The notes below the pieces were generated by a model. That model did no database searches. It had not been told where the DNA came from and saw nothing but the letters and a program-made list of their open reading frames with translations. Below, one piece after another: positions 26,972-30,142 of a DNA stretch of 37,770 nt (the first letter of the stretch is position 1; every line of letters starts with the position of its first letter). The DNA comes from a virus. Location: the UHGV virus genome UHGV-1359486; one strand, 5' to 3'. Both the position numbers and the translations under genes were made by a program.

Positions 26972-27808
26972 CTACCTCCCTGTGAGACTTGGTTTTCCTT
27001 CGCGGACCGCTGTGAGCGTGTCTTCCTTCAGCAGATATTCGATGTCGGCCGTCCATCCGCGATCGCCTTCCCCGAAGTAAAATGGCTTGGCCATCCTGAC
27101 GAAAGCCCTGACATAGGCCCGCCATCCGTCGACGTTTGGAGTTGCCAGTTTCGGTATTATTTTCTTCAGGTCACGCTTTCGCTTCTCAGTGACATCGATG
27201 GCGTGAGGCAGGCGATCACCAACTTCCTCGTTGTAGGCAATGAGATATTCGTCGTAATTGATTTTCACTGCCCGGCGCTTTTTAGGTTTAACCAACCCTT
27301 CCGTTTCACCCCCAACGGGGGTATGGGGGTTAGTTTCTTTCTTTTCTTTTGTAATAGTTTCTTTTGTGTGACTCTGTTTTGGTGACAACGCTGTCACCGT
27401 TTTGGTGACACTTTTTGTCACTGTTTTGGTGACATTGTCACCAGAGTAGTTACACCCCGTTATTTCCCACTCACTCACGTTCTTGTTTGGCCCGATTCTC
27501 GGTCCATCCATAACGACTACACGCATTGCTATCAGCTCGTTTTTCGCCTTGTTAACTTTCTGACGTGGCAGGTTGGTCAGTTCGCTTAACTGGCTGTCAG
27601 CAATGCGGTCCGACTTCTTGCCAAAGCCGTAAGTTTTCCGGCAAATGGCGTGTGCTACCTTGGCCTGATTTTTTGTTAAGTCGGCGCCTATCAGGGCCTC
27701 ATACAGAGCATTTGCAAGTCTGGTGTACCCATCATCAAGATCTGCCACCGTTGGCCTCTCTTGCCGTCGTGCGGCTCCAAAGTGAGCGTATGCAACGTTA
27801 CTGTTCAT
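26972..27808 (-). CDS. Replication initiator O (lambda O / P22 gp18 family)
   Basis: N-terminal domain [30 protein letters not shown]...[11 protein letters not shown] matches lambda O; ATG at 27806-27808 with GGAGG. Confidence 0.85.
27331..27442. repeat. Replication origin: AT-rich tract plus three dyad-symmetric iterons (GGTGACA..TGTCAC) at 27381, 27404, 27428
   Basis: Read directly: GGTGACAACGCTGTCACC, GGTGACACTTTTTGTCAC, GGTGACATTGTCACC each preceded by TGTTTT/CGTTTT, about 23-bp period, inside the O gene. Confidence 0.7.
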
Positions 27809-27968
27809 GCCGTTTACCTCCGGTGATTTCCTGTCGGTGTTCAAGGCGTAATTTCGCATCATCAAATGCCGCCCTGAGTGCCTTTGCTCCCTGCTCCGTT
27901 ACGGCTCTCGCCTCACGTTCCCGCATGATGTTTTTGTGCACAGCGCTGTAATTAAACCGTTGTTTCAT
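27798..27968 (-). CDS. Possible small basic protein (56 aa) between cII and O
   Basis: Hand-translated ORF, weak RBS; stop overlaps O start. Confidence 0.25.
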   Translation of the reverse strand: MKQRFNYSAVHKNIMREREARAVTEQGAKALRAAFDDAKLRLEHRQEITGGKRHEQ

Positions 27969-27994: not shown

Positions 27995-28321
27995 CTAATG
28001 CGCCTCTGCTGCTCCAACAGCCGGGGCGTTTTCTTTTGTTCTCATCAGAGAGAGTTCGCCGATCTGCTTCCACAGAAACCGGTACTCTTCCTCGCTGATT
28101 TTCTTCTCGCCTGGCAAAACAAAATCTGTGATACCGGCTGCGGCCAATGTCTCGCATATCTCCGGTAACTTTTCTGTTCTGCGTAAGACTGTTGAATCGT
28201 GTACACCGAGCAGTTTTGCAACCACTGTCTGTGTGGTACTTCTCAGTGCCTGATGAGCAGTTGCCATCAGATGATTTGACACAAACCGGTTAAACGATTT
28301 GCGTGGATTTGCATTTTCCAT
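27995..28321 (-). CDS. CII-like transcriptional activator
   Basis: 108 aa with HTH (TQTVVAKLLGVHDSTVLRR); between cro and O. Confidence 0.65.
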   Translation of the reverse strand: MENANPRKSFNRFVSNHLMATAHQALRSTTQTVVAKLLGVHDSTVLRRTEKLPEICETLAAAGITDFVLPGEKKISEEEYRFLWKQIGELSLMRTKENAPAVGAAEAH

Positions 28322-28391
28322 TTGTTAAATTCCTTTTGACGTAGTTAATCCGTTGCTCACTTCCTGTGAGGTGCTTGCTGTGTTGAAAAAT

Positions 28392-28434
28392 GTTCCAGCA
28401 CATATCCGGAACGGGCTAAATTGTGTAAAGAGCG
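28392..28434 (-). promoter_or_regulatory. nutR-like site: boxA CGCTCTTTACACAA + hairpin with loop AUAUGUG and U-run
   Basis: Read on minus strand between cro and cII. Confidence 0.45.
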
Positions 28435-28443
28435 GTGCTGATT

Positions 28444-28644
28444 TTATTTTTTGCCTTGTTGTAGCCACGCCGCGCTACATTTCAGGGCTTTTGATAATTC
28501 AAAAATGAATCGTGGGCGCTTAGTTGAACCAGACTCAATCGCCTGGATAGATTGCTGCTTAATGCCAACAAGCTCAGCGAGTTGAGACTGAGTCAGATTC
28601 AACTCACAACGCCGAGCTTTTACACGTTGAGAGATGGTTTCCAT
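28444..28644 (-). CDS. cro: Cro-like repressor
   Basis: 66 aa XRE-type HTH (LTQSQLAELVGIKQQSIQAIESG); divergent from cI across operator region. Confidence 0.8.
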   Translation of the reverse strand: METISQRVKARRCELNLTQSQLAELVGIKQQSIQAIESGSTKRPRFIFELSKALKCSAAWLQQGKK

Positions 28645-28661
28645 ACTTTCTTATCTCCTTT

Positions 28662-28724
28662 ATACAGTTTTATCTGTATTTAATAACAGATACACCTGTT
28701 TGTCAAATACAGTTTTTATTGTGA
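28662..28724. promoter_or_regulatory. OR operator region: three 18-bp sites (28662-28679 ATACAGTTTTATCTGTAT; 28684-28701; 28707-28724) with PR (-35 TTGACA, -10 TTAAAT on minus strand)
   Basis: Inverted-repeat half-sites ACAG/CTGT read directly between cro and cI. Confidence 0.7.
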
Positions 28725-28752
28725 AAATCCCTTTATTACAGGGGGTGGAAAA

Positions 28753-29385
28753 ATGAGTCTTGCCAGCAGAGTAAAAAGTCGTCGCCTTGCGCTCGAAATG
28801 ACACAAACAGAGGCAGCAGAAAAAGCAGGAATTAAACAGCAGTCGTGGGCGTCTATTGAAGATGGTAAGACTGTTAAACCTCGTAATATAATTGCGATTG
28901 GCGCTGCATTGCAGTGCGACCCAGGGTGGCTGATGACGGGAGATAATATTCAGCCAATCAGCGAGGTAAATACACGGAAGATACCTCTAATTAGTTACGT
29001 ACAGGCGGGAAACTTGGCTGAAAGCATACCGATCAGTGATTGTGACGGGTCTTTTGAGTACGTTCTTACCGATCAGGACTTATCTCATAATGCGTTCGCC
29101 CTTCGTATTGAAGGTGATTCAATGGAGCCTGATTTTAAAACCGGCGATGTAGTGATTATCGATCCTGAGATAGAGCCGCATCCAGGTGAGTTTGTTGTCG
29201 CGTCTAATGGCGAGCAAGAGGCAACATTCAAGAAATACAGGCCTACCCATGTCATGATTAATGGTGACCAGCACTACGAGTTAGTCCCACTCAATGACGA
29301 CTATCCAGTGCTCGATAGCGAGAAAATCAATCTCCGGATAATCGGTACAATGGTAGAGCACCGAATTTACCGAAGAAAAAGGTAA
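28753..29385 (+). CDS. cI: CI-type repressor (HTH + S24 LexA-like autopeptidase domain)
   Basis: 210 aa; N-terminal HTH; GDSMEP (Ser) and FKKY (Lys) catalytic dyad context. Confidence 0.9.
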   Translation: MSLASRVKSRRLALEMTQTEAAEKAGIKQQSWASIEDGKTVKPRNIIAIGAALQCDPGWLMTGDNIQPISEVNTRKIPLISYVQAGNLAESIPISDCDGSFEYVLTDQDLSHNAFALRIEGDSMEPDFKTGDVVIIDPEIEPHPGEFVVASNGEQEATFKKYRPTHVMINGDQHYELVPLNDDYPVLDSEKINLRIIGTMVEHRIYRRKR

Positions 29386-29398
29386 CACGCATTTAAAC

Positions 29399-29422
29399 CA
29401 ACCCGCTTCGGCGGGTTTTTTT
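29399..29422 (+). terminator. Rho-independent terminator after cI
   Basis: CCCGC-TTCG-GCGGG followed by TTTTTTT. Confidence 0.65.
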
Positions 29423-29471
29423 GTATCTAAATTCCAATGAAAATCACCCGATTACAGTTTCATCGATAAAA

Positions 29472-29515
29472 ATACAGTTTTACCTGTTGACCAAATACAG
29501 TTTTACCTGTATCTT
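29472..29515 (+). promoter_or_regulatory. OL/PL: two operator sites (29472-29489, 29495-29512) overlapping -35 TTGACC and -10 TATCTT
   Basis: Same 18-bp operator family as OR (ATACAGTTTTACCTGT). Confidence 0.65.
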
Positions 29516-29555
29516 TTAATCATCAACGGCACGGAGCCAAAGATAAAACGGACTT

Positions 29556-29600
29556 AGCTCTTTTACAATCGGGAACCTGATCTGAATAAGAGTCAGATCA
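29556..29600 (+). promoter_or_regulatory. nutL-like site: boxA-like AGCTCTTTTACAA + 8-bp stem hairpin with loop AUAAGAG
   Basis: Read directly downstream of PL; loop resembles nutR hairpin loop. Confidence 0.45.
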
Positions 29601-29842
29601 CCACTGAGTGGTTTTTGGGATTGGTGAATGCCGGGTGCTGACCGGCAAGTGTAAGACCTAATGGGTGGTAGATATCGCTGGCTGTAGTCGGTTGAGTAAG
29701 CGCGTTGCAAGCCAGCACCGACCCAATAAACGACATGCGAAACCTTCGCCCCGGTGAAACTCCGGTGTCAACTAGCATGGCGCATAGACAAGCAGGAAAT
29801 CAGCACCTGCCACCAATCACCAAAAATTACTCAGGAGGCAAT

Positions 29843-30142
29843 ATGGCAACAATTACTGTTATTCCAAAGAAAGACAACGCGAAGAGCCGCCGGCTAGCAA
29901 AGCAAATGGCGTTCTGGGACAGAAAGCGTGAGGAGTATGCAGCGATGCCTAAAAGCCGCTCAGTGGAGGAGATTTTTGATTCAGTATTTGCGCCAGCGAA
30001 AGAAGAACGTCCGGCGCTGACACTGAAACCAACACAGTATTACCCGTCCGGTGATAACTGCTGCCTGCCTAAAGTGGCAATTTTCAGCGGGGTTAAGGTC
30101 AAGCAGCCGAAAGGTGATTTCGGGATTACAGTGCGAGCATAA
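29843..30142 (+). CDS. N-like antiterminator (99 aa)
   Basis: AGGAGG RBS; N-terminal Arg-rich motif KSRRLAKQMAFWDRKRE resembling lambda N ARM; first gene after PL/nutL. Confidence 0.6.
   Translation: MATITVIPKKDNAKSRRLAKQMAFWDRKREEYAAMPKSRSVEEIFDSVFAPAKEERPALTLKPTQYYPSGDNCCLPKVAIFSGVKVKQPKGDFGITVRA

What the first reader, a model, noticed from the sequence alone, without database searches (positions are those of the whole stretch)
28392..29600. Immunity region: 18-bp operators (3 at OR, 2 at OL) and nut sites with related hairpin loops
OR holds three ATACAG-N6-CTGTAT-type sites between cro and cI; the middle site fills the PR spacer. OL holds two near-identical sites overlapping PL. Both nut candidates combine a boxA-like GCTCTTT(T)ACA with a 7-8-bp stem hairpin whose 7-nt loops are AUAAGAG and AUAUGUG, differing from the 5-nt loop of lambda boxB. 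The operator sequence defines this phage's immunity specificity.
Basis: partly seen in the sequence, partly recalled or inferred. Interest (0 to 1): 0.4.

Follow-up and report, generated by a model that had tools for sequence, protein, structure and literature searches.

The report
Phage 434-type switch with new nut sites
This is the lysis-lysogeny control region of a P22-like temperate phage: a phage-434-type repressor/Cro switch whose operators differ from 434 by one base per half-site, flanked by two antitermination (nut) sites whose RNA hairpin is a conserved but so far undescribed partner of a P22-type N protein; it is ordinary in kind, new in specificity.

Summary
All four exact ACAG-N6-CTGT sites in the 37.8-kb window lie at OR or OL. 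OR holds three sites 22 and 23 bp apart, with the middle one filling the PR spacer.

The region lines up with phage 434 OR. It has the same spacing, the same overlapping PR/PRM -35 hexamers (TTGTCAAAT) and a nearly identical OR3. 434 Cro and 434 repressor are the closest solved structures. The conserved unit is therefore the 14-bp 434-type operator, with G instead of A at position 4. That change tracks CI residue 33: Ser or Ala in 13 ACAG-type repressors, Gln or Asn in ACAA-type ones.

Both nut candidates are supported by comparison, not by folding energy. In phages sharing the N arginine-rich motif KKDNAKSRRLAKQMAFWDRKR, nutL and nutR each carry a boxA and a 7-bp stem with loop AUANGNG. Across variants, 98.8% of cells pair and four pairs show compensatory changes. 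Homologous N proteins with other arginine-rich motifs have other hairpins. N is related to P22 gp24.

Verdict: a real, correctly read lambdoid immunity region. It is a new specificity within known families, and nothing was tested biochemically.

The parts
27995..28321 (-). cII-like activator gene, the first gene after nutR on the PR transcript
   Evidence: PHROG 191 'CII-like transcriptional activator', E 1e-17.
28392..28412 (-). nutR boxB hairpin GUUCCGG-AUAUGUG-CUGGAAC: 7 bp including one G.U, then AUUUUUC
   Evidence: Folds as drawn. Invariant in about 20 related loci that carry different immunity regions. The same loop, AUAUGUG, occurs at nutL of L036. Fits the family consensus. Also flagged as terminator-like.
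28424..28433 (-). nutR boxA GCTCTTTACA, 10 nt after the cro stop and 11 nt before the hairpin
   Evidence: P22 nutR, annotated in NC_002371, has GCTCTTTACCAA in the same position after cro.
28444..28644 (-). cro, 66 aa, 434-Cro-like
   Evidence: HTH_3, E 1e-14. 58% identical to 434 Cro. Best solved-structure match is 434 Cro, 1zug, E 3e-21.
28662..28679 (.). OR1: perfect 18-bp palindrome ATACAGTTTTATCTGTAT (core 28664-28677). It abuts the PR -10 and covers the PR start region.
   Evidence: The core is identical in all ACAG-type relatives.
28678..28706 (-). PR: -35 TTGACA (28706-28701), 17-nt spacer, -10 TTAAAT (28683-28678)
   Evidence: Read from sequence. Same geometry as 434 PR, TTGACA-17-GAAAAT. 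The consensus scan did not list it because the -10 has T at position 2.
28684..28701 (.). OR2 (core ACAGATACACCTGT, 28686-28699). It fills the PR spacer and overlaps the PRM -35 by 2 bp.
   Evidence: Lies 22 bp from OR1, as in 434.
28700..28728 (+). PRM: -35 TTGTCA (28700-05), 17-nt spacer, TG-extended -10 GAAAAT (28723-28)
   Evidence: Promoter scan. 434 has TTGTCA-17-GAAGAT at the same place.
28707..28724 (.). OR3 (core ACAGTTTTTATTGT, 28709-28722). One half-site is TTGT instead of CTGT. It fills the PRM spacer.
   Evidence: 434 OR3 is ACAGTTTTTCTTGT, and both lie 23 bp from OR2.
28753..29385 (+). cI repressor, 210 aa
   Evidence: HTH_3 plus Peptidase_S24. 38-40% identical to 434 repressor, with the Ala-Gly cleavage site, the Ser of GDSM and the Lys of FKK invariant. 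N-terminal domain matches 434 Cro and 434 repressor structures.
29400..29417 (+). Intrinsic terminator after cI (AACCCGC-TTCG-GCGGGTT plus a T run)
   Evidence: The stem is fixed and the loop varies among same-immunity relatives.
29452..29469 (.). Degenerate third OL site (core ACAGTTTCATCGAT, 29454-67), one good half-site, 20 bp upstream of OL2
   Evidence: family D2. Four mismatches to the 18-mer. Retained in the same-immunity loci L004, L006 and L023.
29472..29489 (.). OL2 (core ACAGTTTTACCTGT, 29474-87), overlapping the PL -35
29487..29515 (+). PL: -35 TTGACC, 17-nt spacer, -10 TATCTT
   Evidence: Promoter scan. The arrangement is conserved in CobraSix, the Klebsiella and Yersinia relatives, and 434.
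29495..29512 (.). OL1: perfect 18-mer ATACAGTTTTACCTGTAT (core 29497-510). It fills the PL spacer and overlaps the -10.
29557..29567 (+). nutL boxA GCTCTTTTACA
   Evidence: Relatives carry GCTCTTTAACA, GCTCTTTAATA or GCTCTTTAAAA. P22 nutL has GCTCTTTAAC.
29578..29600 (+). nutL boxB hairpin UGAUCUGA-AUAAGAG-UCAGAUCA (8 bp here; the conserved stem is the inner 7 bp, 29579-29599)
   Evidence: Centroid fold. 12 unique variants pair in 98.8% of cells, and 4 pairs show compensatory change.
29600..29625 (+). Small hairpin ACCAC-UGA-GUGGU, then U5, then GT-rich GGGAUUGGUG, directly after boxB. Possible boxC-like element or pause site.
   Evidence: Conserved in relatives and in Brookers. 434/lambda nutL has GGTGTGTG downstream of boxB. 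Function not tested.
29843..30142 (+). N-like antiterminator, 99 aa, with N-terminal arginine-rich motif KKDNAKSRRLAKQMAFWDRKR
   Evidence: PHROG 271 'anti-termination protein N-like', E 1e-16. Pfam N_peptide scores 21.3 bits, below the 27.9 cut-off. A profile of six relatives aligns with P22 gp24 (83% probability, E 9e-6).

Best explanation
This is the immunity region of a P22-like temperate phage, apparently of a Morganellaceae host. It combines two modules.

(1) A phage-434-type switch. By analogy with 434, CI dimers bind 14-bp operators ACAG-N6-CTGT. Binding at OR1 and OR2 would block PR, because OR2 lies in the spacer and OR1 over the start. OR2-bound CI lies next to the PRM -35, where 434 and lambda repressors activate PRM. 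OR3, with one off-consensus half-site, lies in the PRM spacer and would shut PRM at high CI or Cro. OL1 and OL2 occlude PL. CI keeps the LexA-type Ala-Gly cleavage site and Ser/Lys dyad, so induction by RecA-stimulated self-cleavage is expected. The specificity differs from 434 at operator position 4 (G instead of A), matched by Ser33 instead of Gln33 in the CI recognition helix.

(2) An N/nut antitermination module of the P22 gp24 family. The PL and PR transcripts each carry a boxA for NusB/NusE, followed 11 nt later by a boxB hairpin with a 7-bp stem and loop AUANGNG. The N arginine-rich motif KKDNAKSRRLAKQMAFWDRKR is expected to bind this hairpin. That would let RNA polymerase read through terminators into the delayed-early genes.

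Shown here: sequence, geometry, homology, conservation and covariation. Inferred: all binding events, promoter activities, antitermination and inducibility.
For: Operators. All four exact ACAG-N6-CTGT matches are in OR or OL.

Colinearity with 434. OR matches 434 OR base for base in layout: 22- and 23-bp spacing, the TTGTCAAAT overlap of the two -35 hexamers, and OR3 ACAGTTTTTATTGT against ACAGTTTTTCTTGT in 434. OL1 and OL2 are 23 bp apart as in 434, with OL1 in the PL spacer.

Protein homology. Cro is 58% and CI 38-40% identical to their 434 counterparts. 434 Cro and 434 repressor are the top solved-structure hits.

Specificity correlation. Thirteen CIs next to ACAG operators read QQS[W/I]x[S/A]. 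CIs next to ACAA operators read QQSIEQ or QQSIVN.

nut sites. In loci that encode the same arginine-rich motif, nutL always has a boxA and a hairpin of this class 135-190 nt upstream of N. In most loci where the sequence reaches past cro, a second such hairpin with a boxA lies there on the opposite strand. Stem covariation: 98.8% of cells paired, 4 of 7 pairs with double changes, and 24-41% pairing when the register is slid. In the window, the only hairpins with this loop motif and a stem of at least 7 bp are nutL and nutR.

Natural motif swaps. L065 shares the N C-terminus with L016 but has another arginine-rich motif and another hairpin. Brookers has a third motif and hairpin, with an A-U to G-C compensatory change between its nutL and nutR.

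N homology. PHROG 271, E 1e-16. hhalign to P22 gp24, E 9e-6.
Against: No binding, transcription or antitermination data exist for this phage or any close relative.

Neither hairpin folds better than shuffled sequence.

PR was not returned by the consensus promoter scan.

Pfam N_peptide is below its gathering score for the window protein, and N has no solved-structure sequence match.

The nutR and nutL stems of the window differ at 3 of 7 pairs, unlike lambda. The nutR hairpin plus AUUUUUC also looks like a weak intrinsic terminator.

Two relatives (L063, L072) have a boxA downstream of cro followed by a hairpin that does not fit the consensus.

The variant sets were collected with a loop motif and a minimum stem length, which favours pairing.

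Cro residue 33 does not track the operator type cleanly.
Confidence: 0.85

Rival explanations
1. The hairpin at 28392-28412 is mainly an intrinsic terminator (a tR1 equivalent between cro and cII), not a boxB, or it serves both roles.
For: The terminator scan lists it: 7 pairs, 4 of them G-C, followed by ATTTTTCAAC. It sits where lambda has tR1.
Against: The T run is short, and in 9 of 35 hits it is ACTTTTC. A boxA lies 11 nt upstream, the same spacing as at nutL. The loop AUAUGUG is identical to the nutL loop of L036 and close to the nutR loops AUAUGCG of other phages with the same arginine-rich motif, whose hairpins are not followed by a T run.
Confidence: 0.2
2. OL has three working operators: the half-site element at 29454-67 is a functional OL3.
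For: It shares TACAGTTTCATC with the other sites (D2). It is retained in three same-immunity relatives. 434, CobraSix, and the Klebsiella and Yersinia relatives all have a third OL site.
Against: The second half is CGAT rather than CTGT, which is 2 of 4 core mismatches. It lies 20 bp from OL2, not the 31 bp conserved in 434 and the three ACAG-type relatives. The same-immunity relatives are too close (cI 99.5% identical) for retention to mean selection.
Confidence: 0.25
3. The two hairpins are unrelated structures, such as RNase III sites or translational regulators of N and cII, and N acts elsewhere or not through RNA hairpins.
For: Single-sequence folding is not significant. The window N protein is below the Pfam threshold.
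Against: The hairpin class changes together with the N arginine-rich motif across homologous N proteins. A boxA always precedes it. Hairpins of this class occur once on each early transcript in most sampled genomes with this motif. The layout matches the annotated P22 nutL and nutR.
Confidence: 0.05

Closest known systems
Phage 434 immunity region (434 repressor, 434 Cro, OR1-3 and OL1-3)
   Same: CI and Cro are homologous (38-40% and 58% identity), with the QQS start of the recognition helix. Operators are 14 bp with ACA...TGT outer bases and an A/T-rich centre. OR spacing is 22 and 23 bp. The PR and PRM -35 hexamers overlap in TTGTCAAAT. OR3 is nearly identical. OL1 lies in the PL spacer, 23 bp from OL2.
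   Different: Position 4 of the half-site is G, not A, at OR1, OR2, OL1 and OL2. CI has Trp31 and Ser33 instead of Ile31 and Gln33. There is no OL3 at the 31-bp position. No gene lies between cI and OL (434 has one). A cI terminator precedes OL.
Uncharacterised ACAG-type relatives: Enterobacter phage CobraSix, Klebsiella phage ST16-OXA48phi5.2, Yersinia phage vB_YenM_29.18, and prophages in Pantoea, Citrobacter, Leclercia, Trabulsiella, Serratia and Rahnella
   Same: cI is 66-70% identical to the three deposited phages. The OR1 core is identical. OR spacing is the same. PL has the same two operators.
   Different: Those relatives have a third OL site, ACAG-N6-ATGT, 31 bp upstream of OL2. Their OR3 is a full ACAG...CTGT site. 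In the window, one OR3 half-site is TTGT, as in 434. The deposited phages have other N and nut modules.
Phage P22 gp24 (N) with nutL and nutR
   Same: The N family is homologous (hhalign 83%, E 9e-6). The arginine-rich motif starts the same way, NAK(S/T)RR. The boxA is rrn-like, GCTCTTTAAC(A). nutR follows directly after cro and nutL lies between PL and N. The virion genes are P22-like.
   Different: P22 boxB has a 5-bp stem with pentaloop GACAA. Here the stem is 7 bp with loop AUANGNG and a conserved G.U/G-C pair one pair below the loop-closing pair. The rest of the arginine-rich motif differs: LAKQMAFWDRKR against HERRRKLAIER.
Lambda/434 N-boxB and phi21 N-boxB
   Same: Same logic: boxA, spacer, boxB hairpin, then a GT-rich tract. 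The N-terminal arginine-rich motif contains an aromatic residue, Trp, as lambda N does (lambda N Trp18 from general knowledge).
   Different: Lambda boxB is GCCCU-GAAGA-AGGGC. phi21 boxB has a CUAACC hexaloop (bioRxiv 10.1101/2025.07.03.663028). No sequence similarity to lambda N was detected.

Membership tests
434-type CI/Cro operator switch | Repressor with an N-terminal XRE-type helix-turn-helix and a C-terminal S24 (LexA-like) self-cleaving domain | tested here: met
   HTH_3 E 2e-7 and Peptidase_S24 E 2e-20. Ala85-Gly86, Ser123 and Lys160/161 are invariant against 434 repressor.
434-type CI/Cro operator switch | CI N-terminal domain and Cro homologous to 434 repressor and 434 Cro | tested here: met
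   The top solved-structure hit for both proteins is 434 Cro (E 1e-15 for CI, 3e-21 for Cro). 434 repressor N-terminal domain also matches (E 3e-10 and about 9e-16). Alignments.
434-type CI/Cro operator switch | Three 14-bp partially symmetric operators between divergent cI and cro, overlapping PR and PRM in the 434 geometry | tested here: met
   Cores at 28664, 28686 and 28709, spaced 22 and 23 bp, the same as 434 at L037 1111, 1133 and 1156.
434-type CI/Cro operator switch | imm434 specificity: ACAA...TTGT half-sites and recognition helix QQSIEQ | tested here: not met
   Half-sites are ACAG...CTGT and the helix is QQSWAS. It works like 434 but is a different immunity specificity.
434-type CI/Cro operator switch | Three operators at OL | tested here: inconclusive
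   There are two exact sites and one degenerate half-site, at 20 bp rather than 31 bp from OL2.
434-type CI/Cro operator switch | CI and Cro bind the operators and regulate PR, PRM and PL | not testable with these tools
   Needs footprinting and transcription assays.
N/nut processive antitermination (lambda and P22 type) | Small basic N protein with an N-terminal arginine-rich motif, encoded first on the PL transcript | tested here: met
   99-aa ORF at 29843-30142 downstream of PL and nutL, with motif KKDNAKSRRLAKQMAFWDRKR. PHROG 271, E 1e-16.
N/nut processive antitermination (lambda and P22 type) | Sequence homology to a characterised N protein | tested here: inconclusive
   Profile against P22 gp24: 83% probability, E 9e-6. 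Pairwise BLASTP E 0.010. Pfam N_peptide 21.3 bits against a 27.9 cut-off, though all 6 relatives hit it (best E 2e-6). No similarity to lambda N.
N/nut processive antitermination (lambda and P22 type) | boxA (GCTCTTTAACA-like) followed by a boxB hairpin on both early transcripts | tested here: met
   nutL at 29557-29600 and nutR at 28433-28392, each with an 11-nt spacer. The same layout is annotated in P22.
N/nut processive antitermination (lambda and P22 type) | boxB structure conserved and co-varying with the N arginine-rich motif | tested here: met
   98.8% of cells paired, 4 compensatory pairs. Three motif types go with three hairpin types.
N/nut processive antitermination (lambda and P22 type) | GNRA-like pentaloop boxB (GAAAA/GAAGA in lambda, GACAA in P22) | tested here: not met
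   The loop is AUAAGAG or AUAUGUG, with family consensus AUANGNG. This is a different boxB class.
N/nut processive antitermination (lambda and P22 type) | N-dependent readthrough of terminators, requiring Nus factors | not testable with these tools
   Needs reporter or in vitro transcription assays.

The most novel reading that the evidence does not exclude
The pairing of the arginine-rich motif NAKSRRLAKQMAFWDRKR with a 7-bp stem and AUANGNG loop (invariant U2, A3 and G5, and a conserved G.U/G-C pair one pair below the loop-closing pair) is a fourth structural class of N-boxB recognition. It would be distinct from the GNRA-like pentaloops of lambda and P22 and from the phi21 hexaloop. Natural motif and hairpin swaps on a common N scaffold (L016, L065, Brookers) would give a ready-made specificity code. 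Separately, Gln33 to Ser in a 434-type repressor may be the natural switch from A to G at operator position 4.
Probability: 0.5. Interest if true: 0.45.

Novelty: new member of a known kind. Interest (0 to 1): 0.3.

Why it matters
The practical gain is annotation. The region gives exact operators, promoters, nut sites and a predicted immunity group for a family of P22-like phages and prophages. The ACAG-type operator set is shared across at least ten Enterobacterales species, so cross-immunity between prophages of different genera can be tested.

For mechanism, it offers two natural specificity variants of textbook systems:
- a 434-type repressor that reads G instead of A at operator position 4, with Ser33 in place of Gln33;
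- a P22-type N protein whose RNA-binding motif and boxB hairpin have changed together, with sister phages carrying alternative pairs on the same protein scaffold.

Both are tractable for protein-DNA and peptide-RNA recognition studies. Neither changes how these systems are understood to work.

Tried and rejected
- Near-identity searches found no close match. There was nothing in 5,426 E. coli genomes and only short patches in deposited phages. The exact source phage is not in those collections.
- Rfam gave no family at threshold. The sub-threshold hits sit on the cI terminator.
- Single-sequence folding statistics for the two hairpins were not significant.
- My own joint shuffle test (a GCTCTTT core followed by any 7-bp hairpin) was too permissive: 4 observed, with up to 3 in shuffles. 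I discarded it.
- Gapless boxA pattern searches miss nutR, because its boxA is one base shorter.
- A profile comparison of the N family with lambda/434 N showed no similarity, and N has no PDB sequence match.
- I tested whether Cro residue 33 tracks the operator type as CI residue 33 does. It does not: A, S, R or Q next to ACAG operators, and L or Q next to ACAA operators.
- Literature searches for the operator sequences, for nut sites in Proteus, Providencia or Morganella phages, and for the related phage names found no description of these operators or this boxB.
- I looked for cII-type TTGC-N6-TTGC repeats near the cII start by eye and saw none. This was not pursued.
Full report
**Layout.** The stretch 27.9-30.2 kb has the gene order of a lambdoid immunity region, inverted relative to the usual lambda map. 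From left to right it reads: O-like replication gene, small ORF, cII-like gene (27995-28321, minus), cro (28444-28644, minus), cI (28753-29385, plus) and an N-like gene (29843-30142, plus). Domain searches agree:
- cI has HTH_3 plus Peptidase_S24 domains.
- cro has HTH_3.
- The cII-like gene matches PHROG 191.
- N matches PHROG 271 'anti-termination protein N-like' at E 1e-16. Its Pfam N_peptide score is below the cut-off.

The finding's coordinates run exactly from the outer edge of the nutR hairpin (28392) to the outer edge of the nutL hairpin (29600).

**Operators: the observation.** The 8-base palindromic core ACAG-N6-CTGT occurs exactly four times in the window. All four copies lie in the two intergenic control regions: 28664-77, 28686-99, 29474-87 and 29497-510. 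A fifth site, with one mismatch, is at 28709-22. About 0.6 exact matches would be expected by chance. The other sites carry 2-3 mismatches, all in the flanking bases or in the OR3 half-site. The 14-bp core is therefore the conserved unit.

**Promoters.**
- PR reads leftward: TTGACA (28706-28701), a 17-nt spacer, then TTAAAT (28683-28678).
- PRM reads rightward: TTGTCA (28700-05), a 17-nt spacer, then TG-GAAAAT (28723-28). OR3 lies in its spacer.
- PL is TTGACC (29487-92), a 17-nt spacer, then TATCTT (29510-15). OL1 lies in the spacer and OL2 over the -35.

A degenerate element at 29454-67 (ACAGTTTCATCGAT) shares the left half-site.

**What the switch is.** Both regulators are closest to phage 434. 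Cro is 58% and CI 38-40% identical to their 434 counterparts. 434 Cro and 434 repressor are the best solved-structure matches for both proteins.

Reading 434 OR beside the window shows the same architecture position by position:
- OR1, OR2 and OR3 start 22 and 23 bp apart in both.
- TTGTCAAAT holds the overlapping PR and PRM -35 hexamers in both.
- OR3 is ACAGTTTTTATTGT here and ACAGTTTTTCTTGT in 434.
- 434 OL1 also lies in the PL spacer, 23 bp from OL2.

The difference is position 4 of the half-site, which is G here and A in 434.

**The ACAG operator class in other genomes.** This class is not unique to the window. Enterobacter phage CobraSix, Klebsiella phage ST16-OXA48phi5.2 and Yersinia phage vB_YenM_29.18 have it. 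Their cI genes are 66-70% identical to the window's. A pattern scan of one genome per species found 16 Enterobacterales genomes with this OR2-OR3 architecture. Ten were ACAG-type, all with the identical OR1 core ACAGTTTTATCTGT, and six were ACAA-type.

Across these, the CI recognition helix reads QQS[W/I]x[S/A] next to ACAG operators (13 proteins). It reads QQSIEQ or QQSIVN next to ACAA operators. From the published 434 repressor-operator structures, Gln33 contacts base pair 4. I state this from general knowledge and did not test it. The Gln33-to-Ser change is therefore a plausible cause of the altered specificity. Cro residue 33 does not show a clean pattern.

**OL3.** In 434 and the three ACAG-type phages, a third OL site lies 31 bp upstream of OL2. 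The window has nothing there, only the half-site at 20 bp.

**Same-immunity relatives.** Three IMG/VR contigs carry the same immunity region, with cI 99.5% identical. Within the operators they differ only in the central six bases.

**nut sites: the observation.**
- nutL has boxA GCTCTTTTACA (29557-67), an 11-nt spacer and the hairpin UGAUCUGA-AUAAGAG-UCAGAUCA (29578-600).
- nutR, on the minus strand, has boxA GCTCTTTACA (28433-28424), an 11-nt spacer and the hairpin GUUCCGG-AUAUGUG-CUGGAAC (28412-28392).

Taken alone, these folds are no better than shuffled sequence. The evidence comes from relatives.

**nut sites: comparative evidence.** Thirty-four viral contigs encode N proteins related to this one, and most of them share the arginine-rich motif KKDNAKSRRLAKQMAFWDRKR.
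- In those that share it, a boxA and a hairpin of this class lie 135-190 nt upstream of N.
- With longer flanks, a second hairpin of the class, preceded by G(C/T)TCTTTAACA, appears downstream of cro on the other strand. Examples are GCUCUGA-AUA(A/U)GCG-UUAGAGC and CCCUGA-AUACGUG-UUAGGG.
- Twelve distinct variants pair in 98.8% of cells. Four of the seven pairs show changes on both sides. Pairing falls to 24-41% when the register is slid.
- Loop positions U2, A3 and G5, and a G one pair below the loop-closing pair (G.U in 10 variants, G-C in 2), are invariant.
- The outer loop positions are A.G in ten variants, A-U in one and C-G in one. A pentaloop closed by a non-canonical pair is therefore possible but unproven.
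- In the window itself, only nutL and nutR combine this loop motif with a stem of at least 7 bp.

Caveat: the variants were collected with a loop motif and a minimum stem length, which favours pairing. The bottom stem pairs, where most of the covariation lies, were constrained only by the stem-length cut-off. The first collection left them fully free.

**Co-variation of N and boxB.** The N family is modular.
- L065 has the same C-terminal part as L016 but the motif RSNYAQRRYERRAAFLAKKR. Its nutL hairpin is GAUUCAG-GCACUC-UUGAAUC.
- Proteus phage Brookers shares the nutL flanks and the N C-terminus with the window. Its motif is ENSKIRRRRKQGEFLARK and its hairpin is GCUCAGA(A/G)-UAAAUU-(U/C)UCAGAGC. 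Its nutL and nutR differ by an A-U to G-C compensatory change.

Three motifs paired with three hairpins on one scaffold is what N-boxB specificity predicts.

**Relation to known N proteins.** A profile of the family aligns end to end with P22 gp24 (83% probability, E 9e-6). It does not align with lambda N. The annotated P22 nut sites have the same boxA and the same positions, but a GACAA pentaloop on a 5-bp stem. Lambda/434 nutL is GCCCU-GAAGA-AGGGC. phi21 boxB has a CUAACC hexaloop (bioRxiv 10.1101/2025.07.03.663028). The hairpin here is thus a different boxB class within a known mechanism.

**Rival readings.** The nutR hairpin is followed by AUUUUUC and is listed by the terminator scan. The T run is short and variable. 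A secondary role as a weak terminator cannot be excluded, but boxB is the better reading. Two relatives (L063, L072) show a boxA after cro followed by a hairpin that does not fit the consensus. I cannot explain these. They may reflect mosaic exchange of the nutR-cII module, which is otherwise nearly invariant across loci with different immunity regions.

**Provenance and novelty.** The window has P22-like virion genes, at 73-78% DNA identity to Salmonella, Escherichia and Proteus podoviruses. Its closest patches are in Proteus, Providencia and Morganella phages. It has no match in E. coli genomes. No paper in the searchable library contains these operator sequences or describes this boxB. That library is incomplete.

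**Verdict.** The region is a correctly recognised lambdoid immunity region. It is a new specificity member of the 434-type switch and of the P22-type N/nut system, not a new kind of system. All binding and regulatory steps are inferred from homology and conservation.

Noticed in passing
window 27369-27454: Three to four copies of a 19-bp palindromic repeat, TGTCAC(C/T)GTTTTGGTGACA, spaced 20-24 bp apart inside the O-like replication gene. They are probably the origin iterons, as in lambda and P22, where ori lies within the O / gene 18 coding sequence.
   Followed up: partly
window 29600-29625: Directly after the nutL boxB there is a small hairpin ACCAC-UGA-GUGGU, then a run of five U, then GT-rich GGGAUUGGUG. 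It is conserved in relatives and in Brookers. It could be a boxC-like element, a pause site or a weak terminator.
   Followed up: partly
window 28356-28370 (minus strand): A second hairpin, CUCAC-AGGAA-GUGAG (5-bp stem, 5-nt loop), lies between nutR and the cII start. It is conserved in the nutR-cII module of many relatives. Its function is unknown.
   Followed up: no
L016/L058, L065 and L001 (Brookers), N genes: N proteins of this family are mosaics. The same C-terminal part is joined to three different arginine-rich motifs, and each goes with a different boxB hairpin.
   Followed up: partly
window 28322-28443 and the corresponding stretch in about 20 loci (L003-L033): The nutR-to-cII segment is almost identical across contigs whose immunity regions differ. 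Its distance to N ranges from 1.3 to 3.4 kb. It behaves as a separate recombination module.
   Followed up: partly
L063 about 3682 and L072 about 3912 (minus strand): In two relatives with the same N arginine-rich motif, the boxA downstream of cro is followed by a hairpin that does not fit the AUANGNG class: CUCCC-UGAAAUU-GGGAG and CUACA-AAG-UGUAG. This is unexplained.
   Followed up: no
window 29400-29417: In the intrinsic terminator after cI, the loop varies (TTCG, TCAG, TCCG) among same-immunity relatives while the stem stays fixed.
   Followed up: partly
window 27798-27968 (minus strand): A 56-aa ORF between cII and O matches a PHROG labelled 'tail protein' (E 2e-4). P22 orf48 and Pantoea phage PA-1 ORF028 carry the same label at the same position. 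The label is probably a propagated misannotation.
   Followed up: no
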